Assembly (NCBI GenBank): GCA_947457935.1
Contig: CANGXP010000005.1
Span: forward strand, 2,511 to 66,510
DNA length: 64,000 bases
DNA from: Alphaproteobacteria bacterium
GTDB lineage: Bacteria; Pseudomonadota; Alphaproteobacteria; JAJTHO01; CANGXP01
Reading direction: 5' to 3'
In this document: piece after piece, positions 478 through 63,449 of the stretch
How positions within the stretch are numbered: position 1 is the stretch's first letter
How the letters are laid out: each line of letters begins with the position of its first letter
Notes under the pieces: model-generated
Told to the model about the DNA's origin: nothing
Database searches by the model: none
Seen by the model: only the letters and a program-made list of their open reading frames with translations
Program-made: the position numbers and the translations under genes

Positions 478-933
478 GTTCTAAACTCCTTTTGATAGCC
501 TCTGCAAGCATTGCTGCAGCGCGTAAATCTCCTGCCGATAAGTCGTCTTTTTCATTCTTGCCATACGCCGTGATAAGCGTTAGCGGCAACCGTTCATCAT
601 AGTAAAAGTAGATAACCCTTGCGCCGCCACGTTTTCCCCGTTGCTTTGATTGCCAACGCATAGTCGTTTCAATTTAAAATTACCCATAGCCGAAAACGAG
701 TGCAGCGGCGCGAAGTGTACCTCTTCGTACATGAGAGACGCTAAAGGAAGTTTGCAGGCATGGGTAATTTTAAAGTGGAATAACTATAGCTTGCGTACAC
801 CGCCTGAACCCTTAATCACATCCCCCGCCAAAGGATTGACTGACAGAAACATCTTGAGGGCTTCCACTTGCTCTTCTGTAAACAGCTTTTCAGCTTGTTT
901 GGTAAATTCTGGTGTTTCGGCAACGGTAAGCAT
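458..933 (-). pseudogene. RelE/HigB-family toxin gene interrupted by a 129-bp palindromic element
   Basis: The minus-strand N-terminal fragment (933 down to about 787) reads MLTVAETPEFTKQAEKLFTEEQVEALKMFLSVNPLAGDVIKGSGGVRKL and stops at a TAG created at the element junction. The C-terminal fragment (661-458) reads MRWQSKQRGKRGGARVIYFYYDERLPLTLITAYGKNEKDDLS, a typical RelE/HigB core. Removing the element and one TA restores an in-frame ...GGVRKLRWQSK... ORF. Confidence 0.6.
659..788 (+). mobile_element. Palindromic MITE-like element copy 1 (about 129 bp, TA target)
   Basis: Termini are TAGTCGTTTCAATTTAAAATTACCC ... GGGTAATTTTAAAGTGGAATAACTA, flanked by CA/TA. The copy is homologous over its full length to the copies at 3410, 7883 and 63319. 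Confidence 0.6.
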
Positions 934-960
934 GGTTGATAGTAGTATATAATACGACTA

Positions 961-1542
961 TTGTCAACTTCTATAACACCTCTATGTAACTACCTGATGC
1001 GCAATTCACATTGTATAACACCTGATTTTTTGTTAAATTACAGAATACTTTACGAGGAATTGAATTTGCTCAGTCTTTTGTTAGCGGGGGTGTTGATAGC
1101 CAGCGCACCCCCCGAGTTGCCAAAGCAACTCACGAAGGCACAATACTGCCTCCGTCTTTATGGCTACGAAATTTCTGACCTTCTGGGAGTGAATGGACTT
1201 CCAATAGGTCTTAAATATCTAGGAAAAATAGAAAAATGCCAACCCCTGCGGGATGGTATTTTTATTTTCCCTCCAGCACTCTCCGATGAGTTCTGGGGTA
1301 TTCTGGATGGCACCGTCAAAGTGCCAACACCGATTGTTTTTAGTCTCAAAAATCAGCGGGCAACAAAATTGCCAAGCCTGATTAAGGGGCTGAAAGCAAT
1401 GTCTAAAACCACAACAGGATTCGTGGTTTTGGACGAAAGATTCGACAGAAAAGTCTTGTCTGATAACCTCGGACAAGAAGCGTTCTACTCAGTAAACTTC
1501 CTCCTACGGGAGGAGGATTTGGACAGAGCAGTAAGAAAATAA
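961..1542 (+). CDS. hypothetical protein (start uncertain, possibly secreted)
   Basis: 193-aa ORF with no recognisable motifs. An internal hydrophobic stretch (LNLLSLLLAGVLIASAPP) could be a signal peptide if the true start is internal. A terminator follows the ORF. Confidence 0.35.
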   Translation: MSTSITPLCNYLMRNSHCITPDFLLNYRILYEELNLLSLLLAGVLIASAPPELPKQLTKAQYCLRLYGYEISDLLGVNGLPIGLKYLGKIEKCQPLRDGIFIFPPALSDEFWGILDGTVKVPTPIVFSLKNQRATKLPSLIKGLKAMSKTTTGFVVLDERFDRKVLSDNLGQEAFYSVNFLLREEDLDRAVRK

Positions 1543-1561
1543 ACTACTGCTCACAAACCTT

Positions 1562-1593
1562 CCCTCTTCTTCCATTCAAGAAGAGGGTTTTTC
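1562..1593. terminator. Rho-independent terminator hairpin, possibly bidirectional (hypothetical gene and recJ)
   Basis: CCCTCTTCTT / AAGAAGAGGG stem followed by TTTTT. It lies between the convergent ORF 961-1542 and recJ. Confidence 0.5.
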
Positions 1594-1612
1594 TAAACAA
1601 TATTTAGATCCC

Positions 1613-3418
1613 TCAAGCCGCCAACCCTTCCCCCCAGCCCCGTGTCTCCGCCGTGGGCAGCATCACATCCTCAATAAACACTTGCGGCGTGGGGGTTTTG
1701 CCCCATGTATCCAGTTTTAACGTGCCCGCAATATGCAACGGCTTACCTTGGTTGGAGAGCAACACCTGCCCGATATTCTGGTCAAGGGCACGGAATGCCA
1801 TCGCTTTCACGGTAAAAGCGCGGTCTTTATCTCCCAACACACACCGCACATGATTATCCCCCACAACGGCGGCTTGGCGAATAATCACCTCAGGCAACAA
1901 AAACCGTGGTTGCGGATTGCCCGCCCCAAACGGCGCGAGTTGCTCTAATTTTGTGATAAAGTCCGCTGTGATGCCCTTAATGTGCATTGTGCCATCTAAA
2001 TGCAACAGCGGCGTAATATTCTGTGCAGCAATAAGGCGTTGCACCTGTTCTTCTAAGTAGTCTGTGAAGACAGGCAGCATGCTTGCATGGATACTAAACC
2101 CCGCCGCCATTTCATGCCCACCACCAGCCAACAACATCTCTTGTTGCCGTGCGGCAATCACTAAATTGCCCAAATGCACGCCACTCACCGAACGACATGA
2201 TGCCTTACCAATCCCTTTTTCATCAAAGGCTATTACGCAGGTTGGCAGGTGATACCTTTCTTTAAGACGTCCCGCTACAATGCCAATCACCCCTGCGTGC
2301 CACCCCTGCCCTGACACAATCAACACACTTCTTTTACTCGCCGCGTCATTGGTAAGAGCCTCTGCCTGCACCAATGCTTCACTTAAAACAGTATATTCAA
2401 TGGCTTTTCGCTCTTTGTTAAACTCTTCTAACAGCGTTGCAATGTGCTGTGCTTCGGCAGGATTTTTCGTACTCAGCAATTTTGCGCCTAAATCCGATTG
2501 CCCCACACGCCCCCCTGCATTGATCCGTGGACCCAACACAAACCCTAAATGATACGCCGTCGGCACTTCCTTAACACCCGCCGTATCCATCAGCGTTTTC
2601 AGCCCCAAATTTTGCCGATTTGCCATCACTTTTAAGCCTTGCGCCACAAAAGCTCGATTCAGCGTGGTCAGACTCACCACGTCACACACGGTGCCTAGCG
2701 CCACAATATCGAGTAAATTAAGCAAGTTAGGCTTTTTTGTTTGTGTAAAAAACCCCCGCGCTTCCAAAATGGTGTTGGTCGCAATCAGCAACAAAAACAC
2801 CACGCCCACGGCCGCTAAGTGCTTATAATCACTGTCTTCATCAAACCGATTCGGGTTCACCACCGCCACCGCCGCTGGCATGGTTAACTCACTCGCATGG
2901 TGATCAATCACCAGCACTTCTAACCCACAGTTTTTGGCGGCCTCAAGGGGGGCAAATGCCGTGGTGCCACAATCAACGGTAATCACCAAGTCAACGCCTT
3001 CTGCCCGCAGCTTTTCTAGTGCAGGCGCATTAGGACCATACCCCTCTTTCATGCGGTCAGGCACATACAATTGAATGACTTGCCCTAACATCTGAAAGTA
3101 ATTTAATAGCAATGCAGAAGAAGTTGCGCCATCTACATCATAATCACCCCACACTGCCACCGATTGCTTGCTGATAATTGCTTCAGCTAATCTATTCGCT
3201 GCCGCTTGCATATCTTTGAGATGCAATGGATTTGGCAGCGCATCTTTGAGACGCGGCTCTAAAAACCCCTCCGCCTCTTCTAAGCCAATATTGCGCGCCG
3301 CGAGCAGCTGCCCCAAAACCACAGGCAGTTGAAATCGTTGACTCAACGCTAACGCAAGGCGTTCATCATGCGGTTTAAAGCGCCACGTTCTAGCAGAGGC
3401 TGAAAGCATTATAATCAT
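1613..3418 (-). CDS. recJ: Single-stranded-DNA-specific exonuclease RecJ
   Basis: 601-aa protein with DHH and DHHA1 family sequence features (VITVDCGTTA, DHH). The alternative start at 3409 (MLSAS...) is more likely. Either start lies inside element copy 2. Confidence 0.9.
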   Translation of the reverse strand: MIIMLSASARTWRFKPHDERLALALSQRFQLPVVLGQLLAARNIGLEEAEGFLEPRLKDALPNPLHLKDMQAAANRLAEAIISKQSVAVWGDYDVDGATSSALLLNYFQMLGQVIQLYVPDRMKEGYGPNAPALEKLRAEGVDLVITVDCGTTAFAPLEAAKNCGLEVLVIDHHASELTMPAAVAVVNPNRFDEDSDYKHLAAVGVVFLLLIATNTILEARGFFTQTKKPNLLNLLDIVALGTVCDVVSLTTLNRAFVAQGLKVMANRQNLGLKTLMDTAGVKEVPTAYHLGFVLGPRINAGGRVGQSDLGAKLLSTKNPAEAQHIATLLEEFNKERKAIEYTVLSEALVQAEALTNDAASKRSVLIVSGQGWHAGVIGIVAGRLKERYHLPTCVIAFDEKGIGKASCRSVSGVHLGNLVIAARQQEMLLAGGGHEMAAGFSIHASMLPVFTDYLEEQVQRLIAAQNITPLLHLDGTMHIKGITADFITKLEQLAPFGAGNPQPRFLLPEVIIRQAAVVGDNHVRCVLGDKDRAFTVKAMAFRALDQNIGQVLLSNQGKPLHIAGTLKLDTWGKTPTPQVFIEDVMLPTAETRGWGEGLAA

Positions 3419-3539
3419 TCCACTTTAAAATTACCCCTGCCTGCAAACTTCCTTTAGCGTCTCTTCTGTACGAATAGGTACATTTCGCGCCGCTGCAGTC
3501 GTTTTCGGCTATGGGTAATTTCAAATTGAAACGACTATA
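3410..3539 (-). mobile_element. Palindromic MITE-like element copy 2
   Basis: TA-TAATCATTCCACTTTAAAATTACCC ... GGGTAATTTCAAATTGAAACGACTA-TA. The core is reverse-complemented relative to copy 1. It overlaps the 5' end and start codon of recJ. Confidence 0.6.
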
Positions 3540-3702
3540 CGAGAGGCGGGAGAATAATGTTAAAATTACAAAACCCTTGTCTTTACTGTGCATATTGCGT
3601 ATGGAAACGCAACGTAAAAGGTAACGGAGCCTAGAGGATGGCACTTTTCTCTCGCCTCTCGCCTCCCGCCTTTTGCCTCCCGCCTCATTCAGGAATAAAG
3701 CC

Positions 3703-4761: not shown

Positions 4762-4767
4762 AAAACA

Positions 4768-7203: not shown

Positions 7204-7887
7204 ATGAACGACATCCTCAAAGAAGCCCAATCAGACCTCACCCAAGAAAAACTGCGCGTTTTCTTCCAAAAACACACGGGCAAATTGGTAGGCGGTGTGG
7301 TGGTAGTATTGCTCTCAGCGGGGGCAGCAAGCTGGATGCACAGCGAAAAACAAGAAAAACTCGAAGCCCTCAATGTGCAATATCATGCCGCCGAAAAATT
7401 CATTGCGGAAAGCAGCCTTGCCGAAGCCAGCAACACGCTGGATGCACTGGCAGATCAAGAAGGAAAACACGGTTTTGGTACACTCGCTCGTTTCCGCAAG
7501 GCATCCTTATTGCTGATACAAAACAGAGAAGAAGAAGCGCAAAAAATTTACGCAAAACTCGCTAAAGACGGCAGCATTTCCCCTTCTTTACGCGAGTACG
7601 CGAGTATTTTATACGCCTACGGTGCGCTGAACACACAAACGGGCATTGATGCCGATACAACCAAACAACTCACAAAAATCATTGACGATAAAGGGGCGTG
7701 GAAATTTGCCGCGCGTGAGATTCTCGCGCTGCAAAGTCTGCAAGACCTGAAGAAAATCTCTAACCCTGATGAAAAGCGCGTTCAAGAAACTGCGGAGAAA
7801 TTCCAAAGTCTCACAGAAGAAGCCGAAATCCCCAGTGCAATGAAACAACGCGCCGAAGCCATCCTCACTGTGCTCCCCCAACTATAG
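7204..7887 (+). CDS. YfgM-like membrane-anchored TPR protein (UPF0070)
   Basis: N-terminal TM helix followed by an alpha-helical TPR-like body. Conserved position upstream of bamB. Its TAG stop lies inside the terminus of element copy 3. Confidence 0.6.
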   Translation: MNDILKEAQSDLTQEKLRVFFQKHTGKLVGGVVVVLLSAGAASWMHSEKQEKLEALNVQYHAAEKFIAESSLAEASNTLDALADQEGKHGFGTLARFRKASLLLIQNREEEAQKIYAKLAKDGSISPSLREYASILYAYGALNTQTGIDADTTKQLTKIIDDKGAWKFAAREILALQSLQDLKKISNPDEKRVQETAEKFQSLTEEAEIPSAMKQRAEAILTVLPQL

Positions 7888-8011
7888 TCATTCCACTTTA
7901 AAATTCCTCATGCCTGCAAACTTTCCTTAGCGTCCCTCATGTACAAAAGGTACACTTCGTGCCGCTGCGGTCGCTTTCGGCTACGGGGAATTTTAAATTG
8001 AAACGACTATA
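7883..8011 (-). mobile_element. Palindromic MITE-like element copy 3
   Basis: TA-TAGTCATTCCACTTTAAAATTCC ... GGAATTTTAAATTGAAACGACTA-TA with clean TA duplication. It fills the whole yfgM-bamB intergenic region. Confidence 0.65.
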
Positions 8012-8034: not shown

Positions 8035-9348
8035 ATGAAAAACTCTCTCCGCAAAACACTGCTGTTGTCTACTTGCCTTGTCACGCTTGCAGGATGCAGC
8101 CTGTTTGAAGAAGCGCCCCAACCCGTGATTGACAAAAGCAAGCGTCTCTCTGTGTTACAGCTAGAGAAAAAACTCACGCCCGAAACCAATACGCCCGTGG
8201 TGTTGCCTGAAGCCATCACCAATGATGCATGGCTGCAAGCAGGCGGCAATGCCACCCATGCCTTCCCGCCCCTTGCACTCGGCAAAACGCTGGAACAAAG
8301 ATGGCGCACCAATGTTGGCACGTCCTCTGAAGAAGAGGGGTTCACGCCCATCTCCCCCCTCATCACGGGCAACAAACTCATTGCGCTTGATGCACAAGGC
8401 ATGCTTACCGCGCTTAATACTCAAGATGGCGAAAAGCTTTGGGAAATAGGGGTTGCACCCGAAAAAGAAGAAGTAACGCTGATGCGCGGCGGCATGGCGG
8501 TCAGCGGCGGTGTTATTTATATTGCCTCAGGCTATGCAGAACTCATCGCGGTGGAAGCAGAAGCGGGGAAAGTGTTGTGGCGTGTGCCTCTGCCCGCCCC
8601 TGTTCACGCCGCCCCCATCATTGAAGGCAATAAATTATTCCTCATCACTGTTGATAATGAAATGTATGCCTACGGGCTTCCTGCTGGCAATTTGCTGTGG
8701 AATAGCGCGGGCTTAACCGAGAATGCCGCCATTGCAGGTACAGGCAGTGTTGCTGCCACGAGCGATATTGTTGTCGTCCCCTATTCTTCAGGCGAACTTT
8801 CTGCTGTGCTGAATGGAAACGGCCGTGTTGTGTGGGAGCAATCGCTTGTTGCCGCCAGCCGCCTTTCTGCCGCTGGCTCTTTGTCTTCCATTGTTGGCCG
8901 CCCGATTATTCACAACGGCAAAGTTTTCGCTGTGGGGCATGGCGGGCGCACCATCGCGGTGGATGCACGCTCTGGCAAACGCCTGTGGAGCAAAGACATC
9001 GGCAGCATTCGCAGTCCTTGGCTTGCAGGAGATTTTCTCTACGTTATCACCAACGACAACCAACTCGTTTGCTTGAATACAGAGGGCGGCATTCGCTGGG
9101 TCACACAACTGCAACGCTATGAAGACAGCGACGAAAAAGACAACCCTATCCTCTGGAGTAGCCCGATTATCGGCGGCAACCGCTTATTACTAACCAACTC
9201 AATGGGGCAACTAGTCAGTGTATCCCCCACCACAGGGGCAATCATAGCAACCGAAGACCTCCCCGCACCCACCATCGCCGATCCTGTTATTGCGCGGGGC
9301 ACGCTTTATCTTCTTACTAATGAGGGGGATGTTGTCGCGATGCGATAG
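8035..9348 (+). CDS. bamB: Outer membrane protein assembly factor BamB (PQQ-repeat beta-propeller lipoprotein)
   Basis: Lipoprotein signal peptide with LAGC lipobox. Repeated PQQ-like blades (NGKLIALDAQGMLTALNTQDGEKLW and similar). Confidence 0.85.
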   Translation: MKNSLRKTLLLSTCLVTLAGCSLFEEAPQPVIDKSKRLSVLQLEKKLTPETNTPVVLPEAITNDAWLQAGGNATHAFPPLALGKTLEQRWRTNVGTSSEEEGFTPISPLITGNKLIALDAQGMLTALNTQDGEKLWEIGVAPEKEEVTLMRGGMAVSGGVIYIASGYAELIAVEAEAGKVLWRVPLPAPVHAAPIIEGNKLFLITVDNEMYAYGLPAGNLLWNSAGLTENAAIAGTGSVAATSDIVVVPYSSGELSAVLNGNGRVVWEQSLVAASRLSAAGSLSSIVGRPIIHNGKVFAVGHGGRTIAVDARSGKRLWSKDIGSIRSPWLAGDFLYVITNDNQLVCLNTEGGIRWVTQLQRYEDSDEKDNPILWSSPIIGGNRLLLTNSMGQLVSVSPTTGAIIATEDLPAPTIADPVIARGTLYLLTNEGDVVAMR

Positions 9349-9527
9349 CGTTTGAAAAGATTTGATTTCCGTTGGAACTTGTCCTCACGGAAGTGAAGAC
9401 GGGAATGGTTTCGCATCAGCCCTAGAAGAAATAACCAGCTGCTTCTGACCCTTTTAAGTAATTATTTTTTATATGCATTATTTGAATTATTAATGCTTTT
9501 TTAACTATATTATGCTAACATTTCCGA

Positions 9528-12977: not shown

Positions 12978-13217
12978 ATGCCAGATATTATTCTTCATGA
13001 TGTTCCTGATCATGTATTTGCGCTTCATCTGCAGCAAGCAGAACAAGAAGGCGTTGATATTGAGCAGCATATTCAAAGGATATTAGCTCAAAAACTTCCC
13101 TCAAAACGACTTGAAACGATTACCCAAATAGAAGCGTTGCGGCGTGAAATAAAAACTGAATACGGTGTTCTTGACGATAGCACGCCTCTTATTCGTGAAT
13201 TTAGAGATACACTCTAA
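12978..13217 (+). CDS. Ribbon-helix-helix antitoxin (VapB/FitA-like)
   Basis: 79-aa protein with Arc/MetJ-type N-terminus (IILHDVPDHVFALHLQQAEQEGVDIEQHIQRIL). TAATG overlap with the downstream PIN gene. Confidence 0.6.
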   Translation: MPDIILHDVPDHVFALHLQQAEQEGVDIEQHIQRILAQKLPSKRLETITQIEALRREIKTEYGVLDDSTPLIREFRDTL

Positions 13218-13636
13218 TGGTTGTTGTTGACGCAAGCGTTGCCGTAAAATGGTTTTTAGAAGAACAGGATAGCGACCGTGTTGCCCACCTGCTTTATGAA
13301 CAACAGTCTTTATGCGCCCCACAAATCATTTTCTTGGAAGTTTTTTCGGCTTTTTGTAAAAGAGCACGCGTTGGCTCTCTTAAAAAAGCAACTGCCAAAA
13401 AATTATGCGATCGTTGGTTTCTGGGTGGGCAAGATATTTTTTCGGAAATTTTCCCACCAGCTTTATTTATACAACAAGCCTATACAATAGCCTTAGAATA
13501 CAACCATGCCTTACCAGACTGTTTTTATTTAGCAGTTGCCTTGCAAGAACATCTCCCTTTATTAACGTTTGATGTCCGCCTCGCCAATCTTGCAAAGACT
13601 CTTAATATTCCAACCCCACTACAACACATTAATTAG
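13217..13636 (+). CDS. vapC: PIN-domain toxin VapC
   Basis: N-terminal VVDASVAVKWFLEE with conserved acidic residues of the PIN fold. Translationally coupled to the upstream RHH gene. Confidence 0.7.
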   Translation: MVVVDASVAVKWFLEEQDSDRVAHLLYEQQSLCAPQIIFLEVFSAFCKRARVGSLKKATAKKLCDRWFLGGQDIFSEIFPPALFIQQAYTIALEYNHALPDCFYLAVALQEHLPLLTFDVRLANLAKTLNIPTPLQHIN

Positions 13637-15468: not shown

Positions 15469-15621
15469 TTGTTACGATCCTGTTAACTATTTTTTCATTA
15501 TGAGTAATTTTATTACAAAAAGCAAGATTATTTTGTTTGTAAGTTATACGTCGTGAGGGTTAAAAAAGTATTAGCGATGCAGCATAAAAAATCGATATGA
15601 TTATAAAAAAAGATCTCTCTG

Positions 15622-16124: not shown

Positions 16125-19100
16125 ATGACACAGCCCCTCTCGTTCCAAAACATCATTCTCACCCTCCAGAAATTCTGGGGAAACCAAGGCTGTGCCTTGC
16201 TTCAGCCATATGATGTGGAGATGGGCGCGGGCACCTTTCACCCCGCAACAACCCTAAGATCTTTGGGCGAACAGCCGTGGCGCGCTGCCTATCCCCAACC
16301 CTGCCGCCGCCCTACCGATGGCCGCTATGGCGAGAACCCTAACCGCCTTCAGCACTACTATCAGTTCCAAGTTATCATAAAACCCTCGCCTGCCAACATC
16401 CAAGAATTGTATCTAGAAAGCCTGAAAGCCTTAGGAATAGACATTTCTAAGCACGATATTCGGTTTGTGGAAGACGATTGGGAAAGTCCTACTTTGGGGG
16501 CAGCGGGTCTTGGTTGGGAGGTGTGGTGCGATGGCATGGAAGTCACGCAATTCACCTATTTCCAGCAGGTTGGCGGCTTTGATTGCGCGCCCGTTTCTGC
16601 CGAGATTACCTACGGATTAGAACGCCTTGCCATGTATATTCAAGGCGTGGAGAATGTGTATGATTTGATTTACGTTGAAGGGGATAGGCACGAGGCACGA
16701 GGCACGAGGGAAGAAATGATTTCCTCTTCTCGCGCCTCGTGCCTCGAGCCTCTTACCTATGGAAACGTCTTCCTCCGCAACGAACAAGAATTTTCCGCCT
16801 ATAATTTTGAGCACGCAACCACCGAAAAGTTATTCCAACACTTTGCTGATGCCGAGCTAGAATGCCAGCACTTGCTCGCACAAAACCTTGCCCTGCCTGC
16901 CTACGACCAGTGCATCAAAGCCAGTCATACCTTTAATTTGCTGGATGCACGGCGGGTGATTAGTGTTTCCGAACGCGCCAGCTACATCGGGCGGGTACGC
17001 GCTCTTGCCAAGGGATGTTGCGAGGCATGGCTTGCGAAAGCGGCAGCAAGCAACAATCTTCAAGGTGCAGCACAAGAAAAAACTTTCTCCAATCCCCAAA
17101 CTCCAAACCTGAAAACCGAAAACAGCTTTTTATTGGAACTCCTTACCGAAGAAATCCCCGCACGGATGCAGCAAGCGGCACGGGCAGATTTATTACGGCT
17201 ATTCACGCAAAAGCTGGAAAAGCGCGGTATTACAGGGTTTAACGCAACAAGTTGTGTCACGCCACGCCGCCTTGCGTTGTTGGTGGAGGGCTTACCTGCC
17301 GCACAACCCGCCACCACGGAGGAACGGAAGGGCCCCAAAGTGGGCGCACCACAACAGGCGTTGGATGGCTTCTTGCGGAGTGCGGGTATTGAGGCAAGTA
17401 CGCTAAAACCTGTTCACAATCTCGCTAGACTGCAAGCGAAAATTGATGTTCCCGAGAACCAGCGCGCAGTGTATCCTTCATACATGAGCACTGGAAGCGC
17501 AGAGAACATCAATTTGCAGCAAGGTATAGTAGAGAGTGGGGATAGGTTTTTAGAACAGCGTGATGACGGCAAAGGCAACCTCTATTATTACGCGACGTTA
17601 CGCACGCCAGAAACCCCGCTTTCTGGGGTTCTTCCCGTTGTTATCAGTGAAATTTTGCTAGAATTTGCATGGGCAAAATCCATGCGTTGGGGCAATGGCG
17701 CGTTCCGTTGGGTGCGTCCGTTGCAAAATATTTTGGCGGTGCTGAATGGCGTACCGCTCGCGGGCGGCTTTGACCTTGGCAATCATCTTGAGAACTACCC
17801 TGCTGGCTATGTGACCGAATGGCATAGCGGGCAAACTGTGTTGGTGTTTAATAACACAACGGTGGGGCATCGCGTTCATGCGCCTGAAGCATTGCAAATC
17901 AACACGCCGCAAGAATATTTGAGCGCACTGCGTAATGCCTCTGTTGAGCCATGCGTTGAGGCACGCAAAAAGAAAATTATTGAGCACGCAACATTGCTTG
18001 CACCCAAGGGTTTAACCATTGATTTTAATGAGAAATTATTGGAAGAAGTGGCGGGCTTAAATGAGCATCCCGTGCCGTTATTGGGGCAAATTGACGCGAA
18101 ATTTATGACCGTGCCGCCTGAAATTCTCACCACAAGCATGGCGAGTCACCAGCGGTATTTCGCGTGTTATGATGCCGCTGGCACACTCCAGCCCTATTTT
18201 ATCGCGGTTGCCAACCAAAACAGTGATGATGCGGGTCTCGCCATTATTCAAGGCAATGAAAAAGTGCTCCGCGCCCGCCTGTTTGACGCGGCGTTTTTCT
18301 GGGAAAACGATAAAAAGCAAGCTGTTGAACGGGGTATGGAGAGCTTCCTTGAGCCGCTGAAGAACGTGGTGTTTCATCAGGGTTTGGGGACGGTGTATGA
18401 CAAGGCGATGCGGATTGCTGCCCTTGCTATGTCCTTCGCTGACGTTGTAGGGGGCGATGCATCTCACATACACAAGGCAGCCCTCCTTGCCAAAGCAGAC
18501 CTTTCCAGCGGGGTTGTGGGGGAGTTCCCCGAATTACAGGGGATTATGGGGAGTTATCTAGCAACGGCAGCGGGGCTAGATAAAAATATCGCTCTTGCTA
18601 TTCGTAAGCATTATCAGCCGATTGGTGATAGCCCTGTGCCTGCCAACCCTGTGAGTGTGGCGATTGCCTTAGCCGATAAAATGGACACGCTGGTGGCGTT
18701 TTTTGCGATTGGCGAAAAGCCTACGGGTTCAAAAGACCCGTTCGCGTTGCGCCGTGCCGCGATTGGCATTATTCGGTTGATTGTGGAAAATAAACTTCCT
18801 TTAAGCATTAAAAATTTAGTTCTGTGGGGATGCATTGAGTTTCAGCATCAGCATATAAAACCAATAGATGGCAGCGTTGTAGACGATTTAACAAACTTCC
18901 TTAAAGATCGCTTCGTGGTCTACCTCCGCGATACCCACACTCTCCGCCCCGACATCATTCACGCTGTTTTGGCTGCACAACCACAGTTTGGTGACCTTGT
19001 TGCCCATAAACAGGCGATTGAGCAAACACAAGCGTTTCTTGCTTTGAACCCGAATGCGCCTGCCTTAGTGGCGGGGTATAAACGGGCGGTGAATATCCTA

Positions 19101-29090: not shown

Positions 29091-29122
29091 AAAGCCTCTT
29101 ATGAAAATAAGAGGCTTTTTTG
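29091..29122 (+). terminator. Rho-independent terminator after coxA
   Basis: AAGCCTCTTA-tgaaaa-TAAGAGGCTT followed by TTTTTT. Confidence 0.6.
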
Positions 29123-35315: not shown

Positions 35316-35586
35316 TATAGGTCTTTACCGATACAAAAAATGTAGCCACACCTGCCGTTGAGTGATTGATTCCACAGACCCTATATAATAGGTGGGTGCC
35401 AGATGATAAAAACCACGGTTCTTACCAGCGCCAGATCCCTGTGAAATCGTATGGACCGAGGAATGACAAAACCCTATCGCACAGGGCAGCTACATCAGAC
35501 ACTATACAACAAACCGCCGCCCAATACAACTTTGCATTAGGGCTGTTTTTCTGCTATGGTTAATGTTCACATTAGGGAGAAACGTC

Positions 35587-43777: not shown

Positions 43778-43812
43778 TATAGTCATTCCACTTTTAAATT
43801 GAAATGACTATA
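43778..43812. mobile_element. Core-less mini copy of the palindromic element (termini only)
   Basis: TA-TAGTCATTCCACTTTTAAATTGAAATGACTA-TA. The two terminal repeats are joined directly, with no core and intact TA flanks. Confidence 0.55.
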
Positions 43813-46370: not shown

Positions 46371-46383
46371 ACTCTCGCCTCTC

Positions 46384-49688: not shown

Positions 49689-49931
49689 ATGGCGCAACTC
49701 ATGGATACACTCACCACAAAAGTCTTTCAAAGCGGCGGCAGCCAAGCGGTGCGCTTGCCTAAAGAATTTCGCTTTATAGGAGAGGAAGTTTTTATCTCGC
49801 GTGATGGCGAGAAAGTTATCTTATCTGCCAAGCCCCCCTCATGGGATAGCTATTTTTCTCAAGCGACTCTTGCGCCCGATGATTTCATGGCTGGCGTGGA
49901 AGACTTACCGCCTCAAACACGGTCTTTTTAA
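49689..49931 (+). CDS. vapB: AbrB/SpoVT-type antitoxin VapB
   Basis: [18 protein letters not shown] swapped-hairpin motif. TAATG coupling to vapC. Confidence 0.7.
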
Positions 49932-50338
49932 TGCGATACCTACTTGACACAGATACCTGCAGCTACATCATGCGGCAAAAACCCCCTGCCGTTTGGCAAC
50001 GCTTGAATCAGATTGGCGTGGGCAATGTTGCCATATCCGTAATGACGGTTGCAGAACTACGGTTTGGTGTGGAAAAACTGCATAGCACACACTTTACACA
50101 ACGGGCAGTGGATGATTTTATTCGGTATTGTAGCGTTTTATCGTGGGAGGAGAGCATTACCCCTATTTATGCTCAACTTCGCCATTTTCTTGACCAGCAA
50201 GGCACGCCCATTGGCAACATGGATTTACTCATTGCCGCCCATGCCCTACAACAAAACTGTATTCTTGTTACCAATAATACGCGTCATTTTTCCCGTGTGC
50301 CGAACTTAACAATCGAGAATTGGACAACGATTAATTAA
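49931..50338 (+). CDS. vapC: PIN-domain toxin VapC
   Basis: [14 protein letters not shown] ... conserved acidic residues. 135 aa. Confidence 0.75.
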   Translation: MRYLLDTDTCSYIMRQKPPAVWQRLNQIGVGNVAISVMTVAELRFGVEKLHSTHFTQRAVDDFIRYCSVLSWEESITPIYAQLRHFLDQQGTPIGNMDLLIAAHALQQNCILVTNNTRHFSRVPNLTIENWTTIN

Positions 50339-53882: not shown

Positions 53883-54854
53883 TCAAGCTGAACGCTTTAG
53901 TGTATTATGAGGTAGCTCAAAGGAAGAAGAGAAATTAAATAACGAACTTTTTGTTGCTCCATCAATACAATACTCCCGTATTGCACTCGCAACAAATGCA
54001 GCAAGGTTAACAGGGACTGCATTACCAATCATTTGTTCTAAATTTGTTTTTGTCCCACAAAACTTAAAATCCTTAGGAAATGTTTGCAGATAACTACGTT
54101 CAATCGTAGTCAACGGTCTAATATTTTCGAGTATGATATTGTCAGGATCACAAGAATTCAGCTTGTATCCCTTAGGAATGGGTCTATTGACCCCGCGTAT
54201 TGTCGGACTCGGCTCATCAATAGTAAAGATACCGCGCCGATTGTAATTGCGTGGATGACGATAATAAGCCTCTAATCCCAGTGTATCTCCTAGATATTCA
54301 CGTATAGTCATTTTTCTCTCAGACAAATTTTTTCTTAAAACTTCTCTTAATTGATTATGCTCATCATGCAAATGCCCTATGAGAAAAAAGCGGGATCTCG
54401 ATTGTGGAACACCACAGAATGATGCATCCAAAATCACTGCGGTTAATCCATAACCTGCTTGTATAAACTGTCTTATAACATGCTCTATGATGGTGCTTTT
54501 TTTAATTTGCTCCACATTCTCCATAACAAACCAACTTGGTCTTATCGCACAAACAATATTAGAAAAACTAAGTGTTAAATTCGCTCTCCCTTGCGTTATG
54601 TCACGCTTACCAGCACTCGAAAAATCTTGACATGGCGGTCCCCCCATAATCAAGTCAGGAGAAAATTCTTTTATTTTCGCAATAGATTCATCTTCTTGAG
54701 TAAGATCTTGTTTAAAGATTGGATGTGTAAAGTTATTTCTATACAAAGAAATCGCTGCTTCCCAATTTTCAAAAGCAGCAATTACATCAAGCTTCGCCTT
54801 CTGAAAGCCAAGAGAAAGCCCTCCGCAGCCTGCAAAAAGATCAACACACTTCAT
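53883..54854 (-). CDS. DNA (cytosine-5)-methyltransferase
   Basis: Motif I DLFAGCGG, motif IV PPCQDFS, motif VI ENV, motif X near the C-terminus. AT-rich. Confidence 0.85.
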   Translation of the reverse strand: MKCVDLFAGCGGLSLGFQKAKLDVIAAFENWEAAISLYRNNFTHPIFKQDLTQEDESIAKIKEFSPDLIMGGPPCQDFSSAGKRDITQGRANLTLSFSNIVCAIRPSWFVMENVEQIKKSTIIEHVIRQFIQAGYGLTAVILDASFCGVPQSRSRFFLIGHLHDEHNQLREVLRKNLSERKMTIREYLGDTLGLEAYYRHPRNYNRRGIFTIDEPSPTIRGVNRPIPKGYKLNSCDPDNIILENIRPLTTIERSYLQTFPKDFKFCGTKTNLEQMIGNAVPVNLAAFVASAIREYCIDGATKSSLFNFSSSFELPHNTLKRSA

Positions 54855-55894
54855 CGAAATAAATCTGGAGAATTAAATAGAATTGCGTCAAAACGACGTT
54901 CTGGGCTTAATAAATTTTGTCCCCCGCCTAATATAATGTTCTTAATCTCAGATTTTCTTATAATTGGGGTTACAAGCCTTGGAGATGCCATATATTTGTT
55001 AGTGATATTACCTGCTGACGCAAAAGCTTTATCATTTTTTGTATTATAGGACAGAGTGTCAATAATTTTTGCGTGATTGAATTTTTTCTCATCCTTTATA
55101 TCGCTAAGCATTTTATACAACCAAACAGCGGTTCTTGTTTGTCTCGTTATACTCGTTGCTTGAGAACTCCAATTTGCAATACTTGCTATAAAATGGCTAA
55201 ATCCTGCATTGCTCCATACGACTATATCTAAACAATTTTCTGCTAATTCTGGTGATTTCCCTATTGTTTTCCAAATTGGTTGTAACAAGAACGCATGTTG
55301 CTTTTCTTCAAGTAATGCTGTTATTTTCATTATAGCATTAAGTATTTCATTTATTTTCTGTAATACTAACCGTGCATCCGACCAATCCATAATGTCGATA
55401 GTAGGCAGAAAATCCCCCAAGGATTGACCAAGATTACTTGCTATACTACATGCTAAATAAACAATAGTATCTGGTCTTACGACAAGTTCACTTCCATAAA
55501 ATTCTTCTCTAAGATCACATGTTGTATTATCTGGCAGAGCAGTGAGTTTTACCTCAAGCCCCACGAGACATTCGCCTGTACTCTCTTTTTGAACAACAAG
55601 ATCAGTTCTAGGCAGCGTTCCAACAACATATTTTTGATAAGGTGTGTGCTGTGCCTCAAAAGCAAAGTATGTGTCTTTGTTTTCAGCAGGAATTCCAAAA
55701 ATATTTTCTATAGTAATGAAATTTGATTTTAGCTTGCCATTTAGAATCGATAAATAATTCGCCTCAATATTTCTTGAGGCAAGATAACAGCACAAAGCCA
55801 CTGGGAAGGAAGAATTGAACTGGTTTTTGCCCCACGCTTCTTTCTGTGAAAAATCCCTGTTGGTTTTTGTTAATCCGAAGAGACTCGGGTGCAT
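54851..55894 (-). CDS. Putative type II restriction endonuclease partner of the m5C methyltransferase
   Basis: AT-rich ORF overlapping the methyltransferase start by 4 nt. No family recognised. Call is by position and composition only. Confidence 0.4.
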   Translation of the reverse strand: MHPSLFGLTKTNRDFSQKEAWGKNQFNSSFPVALCCYLASRNIEANYLSILNGKLKSNFITIENIFGIPAENKDTYFAFEAQHTPYQKYVVGTLPRTDLVVQKESTGECLVGLEVKLTALPDNTTCDLREEFYGSELVVRPDTIVYLACSIASNLGQSLGDFLPTIDIMDWSDARLVLQKINEILNAIMKITALLEEKQHAFLLQPIWKTIGKSPELAENCLDIVVWSNAGFSHFIASIANWSSQATSITRQTRTAVWLYKMLSDIKDEKKFNHAKIIDTLSYNTKNDKAFASAGNITNKYMASPRLVTPIIRKSEIKNIILGGGQNLLSPERRFDAILFNSPDLFR

Positions 55895-55898
55895 AATT

Positions 55899-56612
55899 TC
55901 ATCCCCTCGCCGCCGCGACAAAAGCCTGCATAATCCGCTTATCACCCTCGCAAACGTGATATTCAGGGTGCCACTGCACGCCGAGGCAAAACTTATAGGA
56001 ACGGTCTTCCACGCCTTCAATCACGCCATCGGGGGCGTAAGCGTTAATCACCGTATTGCCGCGCACGGTTTTCACCGCCTGATGGTGCGCGGTGTTGACA
56101 GCCAGCGTGTCACTGCCCACAATCTCGTGCAGCAACGTGCCTTTGGTGACGGTGACAACATGTCCCACCTCAGTGCGGGGGGTGGGTTGTTCGTGTTCCA
56201 GTGCGCTGTCCACACTATCAGGGATATGCTGAATGAGCGTGCCGCCCAACGCCACGTTCAGCAACTGCTCACCACCACAAATGCCCAAAATCGGGATGTT
56301 GCGTTCTAATGCCCGTTTGGTAATGGCATATTCAAACGCCGTGCGCTTGTCTTTCACTTGAACTGTACTGTGGCGTTCTGCCTCGCCATAGAGCGCAGGA
56401 TCCACATCAAACGCCCCACCTGTTACGAGTAATCCTTTAATCAGGTCAAGATAGGCATCTACATCCCCTGCAAAGTGCGGAATGGCTATTGGTAAGCCCC
56501 CTGCCTCGCGCACGCTATCAAAGTAGTTCTCGCGCAAGGCATACCATGGCATCCGCGAATAACCGCCGCCGTGTTCTGCATCCAAGGTGAGACCGATAAG
56601 GGGGAGAACCAT
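55899..56612 (-). CDS. Class I glutamine amidotransferase-like gamma-glutamyl-GABA hydrolase family protein
   Basis: GICGGEQ catalytic Cys motif and HPE(Y) region. Confidence 0.7.
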   Translation of the reverse strand: MVLPLIGLTLDAEHGGGYSRMPWYALRENYFDSVREAGGLPIAIPHFAGDVDAYLDLIKGLLVTGGAFDVDPALYGEAERHSTVQVKDKRTAFEYAITKRALERNIPILGICGGEQLLNVALGGTLIQHIPDSVDSALEHEQPTPRTEVGHVVTVTKGTLLHEIVGSDTLAVNTAHHQAVKTVRGNTVINAYAPDGVIEGVEDRSYKFCLGVQWHPEYHVCEGDKRIMQAFVAAARG

Positions 56613-56676
56613 GATTAATATTTTTCCGTTGCTTACATCAAAAATATTTCAGACTGCTAAAAATTCTTTATTGAGT

Positions 56677-56758
56677 CTGGATACCAGCTTTCGCTGGTAA
56701 TTCGCCACTCTCGCAAGGATTATCTGCGGTGCGCTTACCAGCGAAAGCTGGTATCCAG
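56677..56758. repeat. Perfect 24-bp inverted repeat with 34-bp spacer
   Basis: CTGGATACCAGCTTTCGCTGGTAA ... TTACCAGCGAAAGCTGGTATCCAG. Each arm also contains its own CCAGC-tttc-GCTGG hairpin. It lies between pntB and the amidotransferase gene. Confidence 0.7.
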
Positions 56759-56789
56759 AAATTAAACAGTGATTAATTGTTTTTGCCTC

Positions 56790-58184: not shown

Positions 58185-58378
58185 AGAGTTTCCTAAGTTC
58201 TTACAGGACTTACGCAGTGCTCGTCTTTTTTGCGCTTTCATCGTTAGAAAATTGCTCAAAATGCTCATTTACCTTAAGTAAACTCCGCTTTTTCACAATT
58301 TTCTGCCTTGAAATCATCAAAAATCCTTCACCTGCCTAAGTCCTGTATCACGTCAAAAATACGATAGAGTGTTTTGTA

Positions 58379-60334: not shown

Positions 60335-60748
60335 TTAAGCAAGGAGCGCATCGCGTAGGGGTTGCAGCATTGAAGCACACTCTTGTGCTGCAGCAGGGTT
60401 ATTGTTTTTGTTAATGGTATCAAGGCTGTAAATCATGAATTGCAGGAGTTTTTGCAGGTTTTCTGCAACATGGTTGCCATCACTTGCATCAATCGCTTGG
60501 GTTAAATGTTGGAGCAACGCTTTGCTTTTATTGACAGCCTTACTACGCGCCAATTTATTTTCCACCAAGCAATAGTAAGAAATCTCATTAAGGCTATTCA
60601 CCGCCTTATCAATAAGCCCCGCAACCTCTTTCGGGGTGAGATATTGTGATGTAACCGCAATATCTTTAACAACAATAGCATGAACAGAGTGCATAATAAT
60701 CCTCAAACATAATAAATATATACTTTGGTTGTGCAAAGAACGTGCCAA
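60335..60748 (-). CDS. FliS-family chaperone-like protein
   Basis: [22 protein letters not shown] ... [10 protein letters not shown] fits the FliS helical-bundle pattern. A more likely start is at 60694. Confidence 0.4.
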
Positions 60749-60835
60749 GCAACAGGTTACGTTTCTTTAATCTTTTTTTTATATCATCACAAAACATACA
60801 ATCGAATGCATAACGACGACGCAGGGAGCACTACA

Positions 60836-61864
60836 ATGCCACACAAAATTAAGAAAATTATTCATCAGCTAGAGGAACAAGCACAACGCTTTGCTAAAAC
60901 AAACGAAGAAATCGCAGGAAAAACAAATTTACTGGCACTTAATGCAACTATTGAAGCCGCCCGTGCGGGGGACGCAGGCAGAGGATTTGCTGTTGTTGCA
61001 ACTGAAGTAAAAAATCTTGCGAATAACGCTACTAAAAATTCTAAAGAGTTTCGCGGCGAGATGATTAAGTGCATTGAAGAAGGGCTAGCAATTACAGATG
61101 CCTTAATCGCTGATATTGAAGGCACAAAACTTATTGATATGGCGCAAATTCTCGTGCAACTGATTGTGCGCAATCTTTACGAACGCACTGCCGATGTGCG
61201 ATGGTGGGCGACAGATGAAGCATTCTGGAAAGCTGCTGAAAATCCCACCCCAGAAAACTGCCTACTCGCAACGCAACGTCTTGCAACCATTAATCGTTTT
61301 TACAGCGTTTATCTTAATCTTATATTGATAGATGCAAACGGCAAAATCCTTGCTGTCTCTCAACCTGAACAATTTTCAACACTTACTGGTAAGGATGTAA
61401 GACACGAACGATGGTTTCAAAATACACTCCGCACACACAGCGGTGATGAATATATTGTTGATGATATTAAAAACTGCCCCCTACATCACAATGCCCCTGT
61501 TGCGCTCTATGCCTCTTCCGTGCGCGAGGGCGGCAAAATAAACGGCAAATTATGCGGAGTGTTAGGCGTTTACTTTAACTGGAGCGACCAAGCGCGCAGC
61601 ATCGTGAAAGACGAACCTACTTTAAACAAAGAAGAATGGACTCGGTCGCGTGTTTTACTGCTTGATGGAGCACACCGTATTATTGCAGCATCCGACAACA
61701 ATAATCTATTGCAGTCATTTCCCTTAGAAACAAACGGAGCAACAAAAGGCTGCTATAAGAGCAGCAATAGGGAGACTATCGCTTTTGCTAAGACAATCGG
61801 CTACCAAGAATATAGTGGCTTAGGCTGGTATGGTGTGGTGATACAGCGTCCTATTGCCGAGTAA
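60836..61864 (+). CDS. Methyl-accepting-chemotaxis-like protein with atypical domain order
   Basis: N-terminal [33 protein letters not shown] is the hairpin-tip motif of the MCP signalling domain. It is followed by a roughly 270-aa sensor-like region ([14 protein letters not shown]...). Confidence 0.55.
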
Positions 61865-63227
61865 CACTCTGCCCATACCCCAACCCTAAAATCATCGCAT
61901 AAAACACCGCGATACTTGGCATTTGCAAGCTAAAATCTATCATTGCATGTGCACCCACCAAAACAGAAACGGCGACCGCGAGCGTTGGATAAATTTTCTG
62001 CCGTTGCCGCCTTTTTATACCGCGCCAACAAATAGCAATAATCCACAGAATGCTTGTGTAAAACAGGATTGCAGCAGGAATGCCTAGCTCAAAAATCAAC
62101 TCTAAATAGTCATTATGGGCACGATCATAATAGCCTACCACCGTATAATCCCGATAGAGCGGGAAGGTGTTTTTAAAATTCCCCAAGCCATATCCCGTGA
62201 GCGGTGCATCCTCAATAGCTTGCACCAAAATTGCATAAACAGGCCACCGCCCCTCTTCCGCCAAATCCGCTGACATACGTCCGAAAGTGCGGGTATTGCT
62301 CCCCGCAACAACCGCCACGATCATCGCAATGGCAGCAACACCCCCCAACAGCTTTACCCACCGTGGCAAGCGTGTTGTGCGTAACGAAAACCCAATAAGT
62401 GTCAACATCCCCGCTACCGTGCTCATAAAACCCGCGCGCGAGTTACTCAGCAATACCGTACTCAACACCACAAAAACTGCCGTAAGCATCAATAAACTTT
62501 GTGGTTTGAGTAACTCTTTAATCATCCGCTGCATAAAGGAACGCCGCCGCAACCGCGCCTTTTCTGCAATAATTTTCAAGCGTTGCGTCCACAGTGCCAT
62601 CAGGCACAACGTGCCTACCCCTGCAAACGTGGCATAAGAGTTTCTATTCACAAACGTGCTGGTCAGATCCTTGAAATACGCCCATTTCGCCGTCCAAAGA
62701 ATACTGGTGTTGCCATTAAAATAAATCCACAACCCATAACATGCATAGCCTAATGCCGCAAAACTCAAGGCTTTAAGGGCTATTTCTGCCCGTTTGGCAT
62801 TGTGCGTAAGAAGCGCGGTTAAAATAAAAACGAGTGCATAGCTAAAAAATCGGAGAATGTGTTGATAGGTGCGTTGCGTATCAAGCGCGATGCTACTGTG
62901 TAAGGGCTTGCCCAAGGCCTTCTCTGCTTCTTGCCACAACGGATGATGCCATGCAACAGGCGTGAAAGACGCTGTTTGCAAGGCTGCCCACAGCAAAACC
63001 AGTAAAAATAGCAGCAGCGGTATTTTTAACGGGGATAAGGCAGGTAGAGTGACGGGAGATTCACCCCGCACCGCTAATAATGCGAAGAAAACCGTTGCAA
63101 GCGTTGTTATGCCGATGCACAGCGGCAACCACGCCCAATCCCGCGCCGCGCCAAAAGGAAACGGGGACAGCACCACCAAGGCAAGCAGTGCATAGAAAAT
63201 ACCAAGGGCGATGGGGCGCGTTGTCAT
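61851..63227 (-). CDS. O-antigen ligase family (Wzy_C) membrane protein
   Basis: 12-TM protein with [17 protein letters not shown] loop motif. Confidence 0.7.
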
Positions 63228-63318
63228 AAAGGAGGCAAGAATAGATGGGCAGGAGGAAAGAGAAAAGGGATTATCTAGAAAACTTCTAGCCTTCTGCCTT
63301 CCAACTCCCGCCTCGTTT

Positions 63319-63449
63319 TATAGTTATTCCAAAACAAAATTACCCGCTGGCGAAAACAACCGCAACCGAGCGAAAGTGTACATCTTAGTACATGAGCGAG
63401 GTTAAGGGAAGTTTGCAGTCGTGGGTAACTTTGTTTTGGAGTGACTATC
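63319..63449 (+). mobile_element. Palindromic MITE-like element copy 5 (divergent)
   Basis: TA-TAGTTATTCCAAAACAAAATTACCC ... GGGTAACTTTGTTTTGGAGTGACTA-TC. Core homologous to copy 1. It ends one base before the recA stop codon. Confidence 0.55.

What the first reader, a model, noticed from the sequence alone, without database searches (positions are those of the whole stretch)
659..63449. A family of ~129-bp palindromic MITE-like elements inserting at TA
Five homologous copies are present in 64 kb: 659-788, 3410-3539, 7883-8011, 43778-43812 (mini) and 63319-63449. All share termini TAGTC(A/G)TT(T/C)CA...TGAAACGACTA. The roughly 33 bp at each end are mutually complementary, so each copy is a long imperfect palindrome. 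Three copies are flanked by TA on both sides. The other two have one flank one base away from TA (CA, TC). This is the signature of TA target duplication seen with IS630/Tc1-mariner-type transposition. No transposase gene is present in the window, so these are non-autonomous elements. Pairwise identity ranges from very high (copy 1 versus copy 2) to clearly diverged (copy 5), suggesting several waves of insertion. I cannot name the family from memory.
Basis: seen in the sequence. Interest (0 to 1): 0.7.

Follow-up and report, generated by a model that had tools for sequence, protein, structure and literature searches.

The report
New palindromic MITE family, Correia-like
The window carries six copies of a small, hairpin-shaped, non-coding mobile DNA element (a MITE) that has recently moved in an uncultured freshwater alphaproteobacterium, splitting one gene, truncating another and adding about 48 amino acids to an essential enzyme; it is a new family of a well-known kind.

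Summary
The sixth sits in frame inside the fused glyQ-glyS gene.

Related strains that are 88-96% identical lack copies 1, 3 and 5. They carry other copies at sites that are empty here, so the element is or recently was mobile. It is a MITE.

Related 35-150-bp variants occur in six public MAG species labelled Rickettsiales or Alphaproteobacteria, including UBA6149 (Ca. Mitibacteraceae). No transposase was found.

The TA-duplication/IS630 reading is not established. The cleanest empty site has CA, not TA, which suggests an element ending A...T that inserts between T and A.

The two halves stay complementary over the whole length through compensatory changes. The outer ~20 nt resemble Neisseria Correia repeats; the interior does not.

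Verdict: a new member of a known kind, of moderate interest.

The parts
659..788 (-). Copy 1 (130-bp type). The net insertion is 660-787 (128 nt), inside a RelE/HigB-like toxin gene.
   Evidence: blastn; covariance model 130.8 bits. The empty allele is in L082. Removing 128 nt restores the 115-aa ORF.
458..933 (-). RelE/HigB-like toxin gene split by copy 1. It now ends at the TAG of the element terminus. The HTH antitoxin gene follows at 160-477.
3410..3539 (+). Copy 2 (130 bp). It abuts the recJ start codon (3407-3409, minus strand) and lies upstream of the divergent deoxyhypusine-synthase-like gene.
   Evidence: In L082 a different 148-bp subfamily copy, in the opposite orientation, sits 1 nt away. 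Promoter-like hybrids use its TATAGT and TTGAAA.
7883..8011 (+). Copy 3 (129 bp), inserted in the last codons of a 227-aa gene upstream of bamB. Its TAG (7885-7887) is now the stop codon.
   Evidence: Orthologues P0001 and P0002 are 4-5 aa longer, and their contigs L075 and L076-L081 lack the element.
17405..17550 (-). Copy 6: a degenerate copy of the 143-150-bp subfamily, translated in frame inside the fused glyQ-glyS ORF (16095-19406). Its termini have mutated so that no stop codon remains.
   Evidence: nhmmer E=1e-14; covariance model 72.1 bits, E=1e-11, full length; alignment. About 48-49 extra residues at exactly this place relative to solved GlyRS beta chains.
43778..43812 (+). Copy 4: a 35-bp mini element made of the two termini joined at TTTAAA, lying between convergent genes.
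   Evidence: covariance model E=6.5e-5
63319..63449 (-). Copy 5 (131 bp), a diverged subfamily with compensating changes in both arms. It lies directly after the recA stop codon.
   Evidence: absent from the orthologous recA contig L083

Best explanation

**Anatomy**
- Conserved ~23-bp termini: (T)ATAGTYRTTYCAMTTTAAAAYT.
- A variable stem whose two sides co-vary.
- Invariant inner motifs CTGCAAA / TTTTCG.
- A central CATGTAC-loop-GTACA hairpin.

**How it most likely works**
- A transposase encoded elsewhere in the genome moves it in trans by recognising the termini. This step is inferred; no transposase was found.
- It lands at T|A dinucleotides. This is shown as a strong preference: 27 of 32 ends have the expected outer base.
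- It has moved recently in this lineage. This is shown by filled and empty sites in strains that are 88-96% identical.
- I rate a Tc1/mariner/IS630-type enzyme with TA duplication at roughly 45%, and insertion of an A...T-ended element between T and A without duplication at roughly 30-35%.

**Consequences shown here**
- One copy splits a toxin gene.
- One copy cuts off the last codons of a gene and supplies its TAG stop.
- One copy replaces the sequence directly upstream of the recJ start codon.
- One old copy is read through as a 48-49-residue insert in glycyl-tRNA synthetase.

Whole-length complementarity is kept by compensatory changes. A single-stranded hairpin (DNA or RNA) therefore either matters for the element or is self-correcting. 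Which of these holds is inferred, not shown.
For: - **Copies and significance:**
- **Empty versus filled sites:** copy 1, copy 3, copy 5. L082 carries copies at the window-equivalent of 7120 and after a Pyr_redox gene, and a different copy at the recJ site.
- **Same family in six species-level MAGs and one JGI contig:** sizes 35, ~80, 117, 130 and 143-150 bp, with copies at contig ends.
- **Recent activity elsewhere:** two 98.6% identical copies with different flanks in one MAG.
- **T/A at the outer positions of most copies:**
- **Hairpin covariation:** 38 pairs, 20 with double changes, 93.8% paired versus 81.8% in shuffles and about 38% when slid.
- **Fold stability:** z-scores from -2 to -13.
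- **No coding capacity or transposase in the window:**
- **No Rfam family:**
- **Architecture:** matches bacterial MITEs as reviewed in PMC2229807 and PMC10969869.
Against: - No autonomous partner was found with matching ends.
  - It is absent from the ~75 kb of this contig that was read.
  - It is absent from 240 kb of held DNA from family-bearing genomes.
  - The element itself finds nothing in the plasmid, phage or E. coli collections.
- A target duplication, a usual hallmark, is not demonstrated. Copy 1 shows CA in the empty site and CA...TA in the filled site. Copy 3 is one base short.
- Genome-wide copy number could not be measured, because the source is a single metagenome contig.
- Whole-length complementarity is more than a transposase needs.
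Confidence: 0.8

Rival explanations
1. REPIN-like element. The hairpin is the substrate of a single-copy HUH/Y1 (RAYT or IS200/IS605-type) transposase acting on single-stranded DNA. It inserts without target duplication and persists vertically, with lineage-specific variants.
For: - The clean empty site of copy 1 shows no true duplication.
- Complementarity is maintained over the whole length.
- One strand folds better in 16 of 16 copies.
- Each MAG lineage has its own co-varying stem variant with conserved ends.
Against: - The termini are long inverted repeats ending TATAGT, not a REP with a GTAG/GTGG head.
- Flanks share no conserved tetranucleotide of the kind IS200/IS605-type insertion leaves on one side.
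- No Y1 transposase domain occurs in the window ORFs.
- G.U versus A.C counts are not strand-biased (52 vs 42).
Confidence: 0.1
2. The repeat is primarily a functional structured RNA or regulatory hairpin (terminator, RNase III site or small RNA) that is selected at each site, rather than a mobile element.
For: - Strong covariation and very stable folds.
- Several copies sit at gene ends or starts.
- Promoter-like hybrids occur at copy 2.
Against: - Presence differs between near-identical strains at every comparable site.
- One copy destroys a gene and one lies inside a coding region.
- There is no T-run after the hairpin.
- There is no Rfam match, even at E<=1.
- Both orientations occur next to recJ.
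Confidence: 0.05
3. The copies are remnants of one longer duplicated segment, or a chance similarity of AT-rich palindromes.
For: None found.
Against: - Similarity stops at the element ends and the flanks are unrelated.
- The terminal pattern hits 9 times against 0.01 expected.
- Precise presence/absence is seen in relatives.
Confidence: 0.01

Closest known systems
Correia elements / NEMIS / CREE of Neisseria (Betaproteobacteria)
   Same: - Size classes produced by internal deletion: 69-73, 104-108 and 153-157 bp there; 35, ~80, 117, 130 and 143-150 bp here.
- Termini start with TATAG[CT]. The outer 20-22 nt are 16-17 identical to TATAGTGGATTAAATTTAAA (patterns from PMC2649163).
- Two terminal variants exist, one with an A-run and one with TTTAAA.
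- T/A at both borders.
- No known transposase (PMC2649163).
- Insertion at gene starts and gene ends, and gene disruption.
   Different: - The interior shows no similarity (z about 0).
- The family HMM finds nothing in 40 kb of N. gonorrhoeae that holds two CREE.
- Mismatches are 9 of 27 against the 3 allowed by the published search.
- No IHF consensus is present.
- The host class is different.
- Here the whole element is self-complementary.
Rickettsia palindromic elements (RPE)
   Same: - Palindromic repeats of 105-146 bp in the order Rickettsiales that can sit in frame inside conserved protein genes and be translated (PMC2229807). Copy 6 does this in GlyRS.
- The hosts here are MAGs labelled Rickettsiales. 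One of them, UBA6149, is placed in the deep-branching Ca. Mitibacteraceae (bioRxiv 10.1101/2021.08.31.458344).
   Different: - Sequence relationship could not be tested, because no RPE sequence was available.
- Only one of six copies is intragenic and in frame.
- A peptide search found no other proteins carrying the 130-bp type.
- The host is flagellate with 47% G+C, not a Rickettsia.
IS630/Tc1-mariner-derived MITEs such as RUP of Streptococcus pneumoniae
   Same: Small elements with terminal inverted repeats found at TA. For RUP a parent IS630-Spn1 with matching ends is known (PMC2229807).
   Different: - No parent IS is known here.
- TA duplication is not confirmed here.
- No DDE_3-type motif was found in the held DNA.
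ERIC/IRU of enterobacteria
   Same: An imperfect palindrome of about 127 bp with TA at the termini, intergenic, forming a long stem-loop (PMC2229807, PMC3184786).
   Different: No sequence similarity to anything in 5,426 E. coli genomes.

Membership tests
MITE (generic) | Terminal inverted repeats | tested here: met
   Arms are complementary over 26-38 nt or more in every copy.
MITE (generic) | Small, non-coding, dispersed in multiple copies | tested here: met
   Six copies of 35-146 bp in 64 kb, with unrelated flanks. Further copies occur in six MAG species.
MITE (generic) | Insertion polymorphism with clean empty sites | tested here: met
   Copy 1 versus L082, where removing 128 nt restores an ORF. 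Copy 3 versus L075. Copy 5 versus L083.
MITE (generic) | Target site duplication | tested here: inconclusive
   T...A flanks occur at 27 of 32 ends. However, copy 1's empty site has CA and its filled site reads CA...TA, and copy 3 is off by 1 nt.
MITE (generic) | Autonomous element with the same termini | tested here: inconclusive
   None was found among the loci hit by the terminal pattern in 185,579 species genomes, or in the JGI metagenome and IMG/VR scans. The pattern was strict, and the source genome itself is not in those sets.
IS630/Tc1-mariner-derived MITE | Faithful duplication of a TA target | tested here: inconclusive
   Compatible at TA-flanked copies. Not met at copy 1, where the target is CA.
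IS630/Tc1-mariner-derived MITE | DDE_3-type transposase in the genome whose IS ends match | tested here: inconclusive
   No transposase Pfam hit in the window. No YSPxLNPxE motif in 240 kb of held DNA. Whole genomes were not available.
Correia/NEMIS | 26-27-nt Correia repeat, with at most 3 mismatches to the published patterns | tested here: not met
   The best match is 18 of 27 identical; the outer 20 nt match at 17 of 20.
Correia/NEMIS | Conserved core sequence, and an IHF site in the long form | tested here: not met
   Interior alignment z about 0. No WATCAR-N4-TTR in any copy. The HMM gives no hit on a CREE-bearing locus.
Rickettsia palindromic elements | In-frame insertion in conserved protein genes | tested here: met
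   Copy 6 in GlyRS beta: 48-49 extra residues at the element's position.
Rickettsia palindromic elements | Sequence similarity to the RPE-1...RPE-n consensus sequences | not testable with these tools
   No RPE sequences were held. The only related check was a search of the plasmid collection with copy 3, which found no match of any kind.
REP/REPIN-RAYT | Associated Y1 (RAYT) transposase gene flanked by the repeats | tested here: inconclusive
   None in the window ORFs. The genome was not available.
REP/REPIN-RAYT or IS200/IS605-type | Conserved short target or cleavage motif on one flank, with no inverted termini | tested here: not met
   Flanks share only T and A, and the element has long inverted termini.
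ERIC | Sequence similarity to the enterobacterial consensus | tested here: not met
   No blastn match in 5,426 E. coli genomes.
Any Rfam RNA family | Covariance-model match | tested here: not met
   None at gathering score for the window (apart from 6S RNA elsewhere), and none at E<=1 on copy 2.

The most novel reading that the evidence does not exclude
The element does not duplicate TA at all. Its true ends are A...T, and it is placed between the T and the A (or another base) of the target without duplication. That would point to a transposition chemistry other than IS630/Tc1-mariner for this Correia-like class of palindromic MITEs. Because the outer 20 nt resemble Correia repeats, whose mobilising enzyme has never been identified, the same unknown enzyme type might move both.
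Probability: 0.3. Interest if true: 0.55.

Novelty: new member of a known kind. Interest (0 to 1): 0.4.

Why it matters
- It adds a well-documented, recently active MITE family to a barely studied lineage: uncultured freshwater relatives of the deep-branching, apparently free-living Rickettsiales.
- It shows in one 64-kb stretch the usual range of MITE effects: gene disruption, a new stop codon, replaced upstream sequence, and a translated insert in an essential enzyme.
- The translated insert parallels the palindromic elements of Rickettsia.
- The termini parallel Neisseria Correia elements, whose transposase is still unknown.
- With complete genomes of these MAG lineages, the family could serve as an independent handle on what moves such elements and on whether TA is really duplicated.
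- In practical terms, these repeats break assemblies of these genomes; several copies sit at contig ends.

Tried and rejected
**Searches that found nothing or little**
- The exact-pattern scan of JGI metagenomes gave 31 loci, of which only one (L044) was real.
- The IMG/VR scan gave only chance hits.
- blastn of the element against plasmids, phages and E. coli genomes gave no match.
- Four exact-protein look-ups failed to find called genes: the two RecJ ORF versions, the DS gene and the 105-aa HTH gene. The 2.5 kb of the source contig before the window start therefore could not be read.
- A profile search with the stop-free reading frame of copies 1 and 2 against 1.84 billion representative proteins returned two short ORFs lying over other copies and one spurious hit. 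This gives no evidence that the 130-bp type is widely translated.
- The IS630 motif regex over 240 kb found nothing.
- There were no IHF or GANTC sites.

**Ideas considered and set aside**
- An RNA-strand bias. The R-arm-first strand folds better in 16 of 16 copies, but the G.U/A.C count is 52 vs 42, which is not significant. I therefore make no claim of RNA-level selection.
- A weak covariance-model hit at 58202-58347 (E=0.59) has no recognisable termini and was rejected.
- An extra ~140 nt in L075 relative to window 9348-9403 is not this element.
Full report
**1.

The five reported copies are at the stated positions.

- blastn within the window gives 93% identity for copy 1 vs 2, 89% for 1 vs 3, 86% for 2 vs 3, and 72-75% for copy 5 vs the rest. 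All matches stop at the element borders.
- A 22-nt terminal pattern with up to 3 mismatches hits 9 times, against 0.01 expected from shuffles.
- A profile and a covariance model built from 16 copies recover the four full copies (118-131 bits) and the 35-bp mini copy (E=6.5e-5).
- No ORF of 90 aa or more in the window has a transposase domain.
- Rfam finds only a 6S RNA elsewhere in the window, and nothing on the element.

**2. Source and host**

- The window is part of a 78.7-kb ENA metagenome contig, ERZ27280134:k141_664683. A further 10.5 kb of that contig holds no more copies.
- RecJ is 53-58% identical to named alphaproteobacterial RecJ proteins. RecA is 82-83% identical to 'Holosporales bacterium' MAG proteins.
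- The contig encodes FliS, a chemoreceptor and cytochrome c oxidase.
- An exact-pattern scan of one genome per species (185,579 genomes) found the family in six MAG species only, all labelled Rickettsiales or Alphaproteobacteria bacterium: JBILKT01, DIUV01 (UBA6149), CAZGVV01, JAJNBL01, JBIIEL01 and CANEUT01. The other hits were chance 22-mers.
- UBA6149 is assigned to the free-living, flagellate, deep-branching Ca. Mitibacteraceae (bioRxiv 10.1101/2021.08.31.458344).
- That the host belongs to or near that group is an inference. It rests on one 72%-identical gene segment and on the shared element.

**3. Anatomy**

- Sizes are 35, ~80, 117, 129-131 and 143-150 bp. The short forms look like internal deletions.
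- The outer ~23 nt are conserved across all lineages.
- Next comes a stem segment that differs between lineages but always on both sides: ACCC/GGGT, TCCG/CGGA, ATAC/GTAT. In copy 5 it is CCAAAACAAAG/TTTTGTTTTGG.
- After that come the invariant motifs CTGCAAA (left) and TTTTCG (right), another co-varying stem, and a central CATGTAC-loop-GTACA hairpin.
- RNAalifold gives one long hairpin of 38 pairs. Twenty of these show double compensatory changes. 93.8% of cells are paired, against 81.8% in shuffles (0 of 500 as high) and 36-42% when the partners are slid.
- Individual copies fold with z-scores from -2 to -13.
- The R-arm-first strand is more stable in all 16 copies. However, the G.U versus A.C tally (52 vs 42) is not significant, so I do not claim selection on a particular strand or on RNA.

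**4. Mobility is shown directly**

- **Copy 1.** Contig L082 (Logan; flanks 96% and 92% identical) lacks copy 1. Deleting window 660-787 (128 nt) restores a 115-aa RelE/HigB-like ORF that matches the L082 gene. Copy 1 therefore split a toxin gene, which now ends at the element's TAG.
- **Copy 3.** Contigs L075 (88-90% identical) and L076-L081 lack copy 3. Their 231-232-aa proteins run 4-5 residues beyond the window's 227-aa product, whose stop codon is the TAG of the element terminus.
- **Copy 5.** Contig L083 (recA 92% identical) lacks copy 5.
- **Copies present only in L082.**
  - One lies at the window-equivalent of position 7120.
  - One lies after a Pyr_redox gene and again supplies the gene's TAG stop.
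  - One is at the recJ start: a 148-bp copy of another subfamily, in the opposite orientation and one base away from the window's copy 2. This points to independent hits at the same spot.
- **Other signs of recent activity.** Two 98.6% identical copies with different flanks occur in CANEUT01. Many copies sit at contig ends.

**5. The target site is not settled**

- Most copies read T-ATAGT...ACTAT-A, in 27 of 32 ends. This is what a TA duplication would give. It is equally what insertion of an A...T-ended element between T and A would give.
- Only non-TA sites can tell the two apart.
- At copy 1 the empty allele reads ...CAACGC|AGCTTG... and the filled one reads ...CAACGC[ATAGTCG...AACTAT]AGCTTG.... 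The target was CA, and the T on the right side came with the element. A faithful 2-bp duplication would give CA...CA.
- The alternative is a duplication followed by a C-to-T change that happens to recreate TA. That is unlikely for a copy about 5% diverged.
- At copy 3 the net insertion relative to L075 is 126 nt rather than 127. That is one base off under every simple model, and the comparison sequence is only 88-90% identical.
- At copy 5 the flank is too diverged to use.
- Across copies the outermost base deviates at 5 of 32 ends, and the next base at 1 of 32. This suggests that the inner A/T belongs to the element.
- I therefore rate TA duplication by an IS630/Tc1-mariner-type enzyme at about 45%, and duplication-free insertion at about 30-35%.

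**6. No mobilising gene was found**

- The terminal pattern picks up only MITE copies in the family-bearing MAGs.
- The JGI metagenome scan added one copy. The IMG/VR scan added none.
- blastn of the element against plasmids, phages and E. coli genomes found nothing.
- The conserved Tc1/IS630 motif YSPxLNPxE is absent from 240 kb of held DNA from these genomes.

**7. The in-frame copy**

- Copy 6 lies in the beta-subunit part of a fused glyQ-glyS ORF of 1103 aa.
- It aligns over its full length to the 143-150-bp subfamily at 53-61% identity. Its termini have changed so that no stop codon remains.
- E. coli GlyRS beta (7yse/7eiv) aligns to residues 6-99 and 161-216 of the region, with 61 residues against 13 in between.
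- The fused glycine-tRNA ligase chain 7xjy leaves 53 against 4.
- That gives 48-49 extra residues exactly at the element's position.
- This is the behaviour described for Rickettsia palindromic elements (PMC2229807).
- It appears to be a single case here. A profile of the stop-free frame of copies 1 and 2, searched against 1.84 billion representative proteins, found only two short ORFs lying over other copies.

**8. Comparison with known families**

- **Correia/NEMIS elements of Neisseria are the closest in architecture.**
  - Published search patterns are TATAG[CT]GGATTAA(CAAAAA|ATTTAAA)..., with size classes 69-73, 104-108 and 153-157 bp. Their mobilising mechanism has never been determined (PMC2649163).
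  - The outer 20 nt of our right arm match TATAGTGGATTAAATTTAAA at 17 positions. The inner part gives p about 0.003 by shuffling, uncorrected for the 24 comparisons made.
  - I confirmed real CREE copies in a N. gonorrhoeae chromosome. The interior shows no similarity (z about 0, against z of 3-4 for whole elements, driven by the ends). The family HMM does not hit that locus. No IHF consensus is present.
  - So this family works like Correia and has Correia-like ends, but it is not a member.
- ERIC is excluded by sequence.
- A REPIN/RAYT mechanism remains a minority rival.
- An RPE relationship could not be tested for lack of RPE sequences.

**9. Possible regulatory effects (inferred only)**

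- At copy 2 the terminal TATAGT pairs with a flanking TTAACA as a promoter-like site facing recJ.
- The arm's TTGAAA pairs with a flanking GAGAAT facing the divergent gene.
- These are consensus matches only.

**10. Verdict**

This is a real, recently mobile, palindromic MITE family, new as a family but ordinary in kind.

- Its mechanistic label (TA duplication, IS630) is plausible but unproven, and the best empty site contradicts it.
- The translated copy in GlyRS, the Correia-like ends and the host lineage lift the interest somewhat above that of a routine repeat.

Noticed in passing
window 56671-56767; also L074 6585-6676 and L084 613-708 (same contig, outside the window): A second, unrelated palindromic repeat family of about 92-96 bp with a perfect 25-bp inverted repeat (TCTGGATACCAGCTTTCGCTGGTAA...). 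Three copies on the contig are 88-93% identical.
   Followed up: partly
window 15590-16100: Four tandem units of about 128 bp (64-72% identical) lie just upstream of glyQS. Each has a TTGCAA-N17-TAATAT-like site and a CTGAAAG...CTTTCAG hairpin followed by a T-run. They are candidate tandem small-RNA genes. There is no Rfam hit at gathering score.
   Followed up: partly
window 3643-3689, 16679-16760, 46352-46384, 63285-63317: Arrays of 7-bp units (CTCGCCT / CCCGCCT / AGGCACG). The array at 16679-16760 is a 30-nt inverted pair inside the glyQ coding part, where Pfam aligns 299 residues to 276 model positions. GAGGCGGGAG also lies next to copies 2 and 5.
   Followed up: no
window 16095-19406: Glycyl-tRNA synthetase alpha and beta subunits are fused in one 1103-aa ORF.
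   Followed up: partly
window 35339-35495 (minus strand): 6S RNA (RF00013, 60.9 bits).
   Followed up: no
window 160-933, 13217-13636, 29120-29813, 49931-50338; L074 350-923 and 7973-8652: The contig is dense in toxin-antitoxin modules (HigBA-like, PIN, BrnT with an HTH partner, ParDE, Gp49/HTH_37). It also carries a HindVP-type restriction-modification pair at window 54851-56020 / 53883-54854.
   Followed up: no
L083 about 3375-3450: In the relative that lacks copy 5, the recA-downstream spacer holds a different, near-perfect G+C-rich palindrome (GGGCCCCTGCCTTCGCAGGGGATTCG...CGAATCCCCTGCGAAGGCAGGGGCCC).
   Followed up: no
L021 5387-5549: A 164-nt stretch that is 74% self-complementary, possibly yet another palindromic element in the JBILKT01 MAG.
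   Followed up: no
L017 1-265: A full copy (36-184) appears to be nested inside another copy of the same family. The outer copy's GGCTGCAAAT lies on the left and its model positions 47-117 resume at 193-265.
   Followed up: partly
PLSDB records NZ_CP119142.1 and NZ_CP119140.1 (L094): Two 2.17-Mb Neisseria gonorrhoeae chromosomes are filed as plasmids in the plasmid collection. This was useful here as a source of real Correia copies.
   Followed up: no
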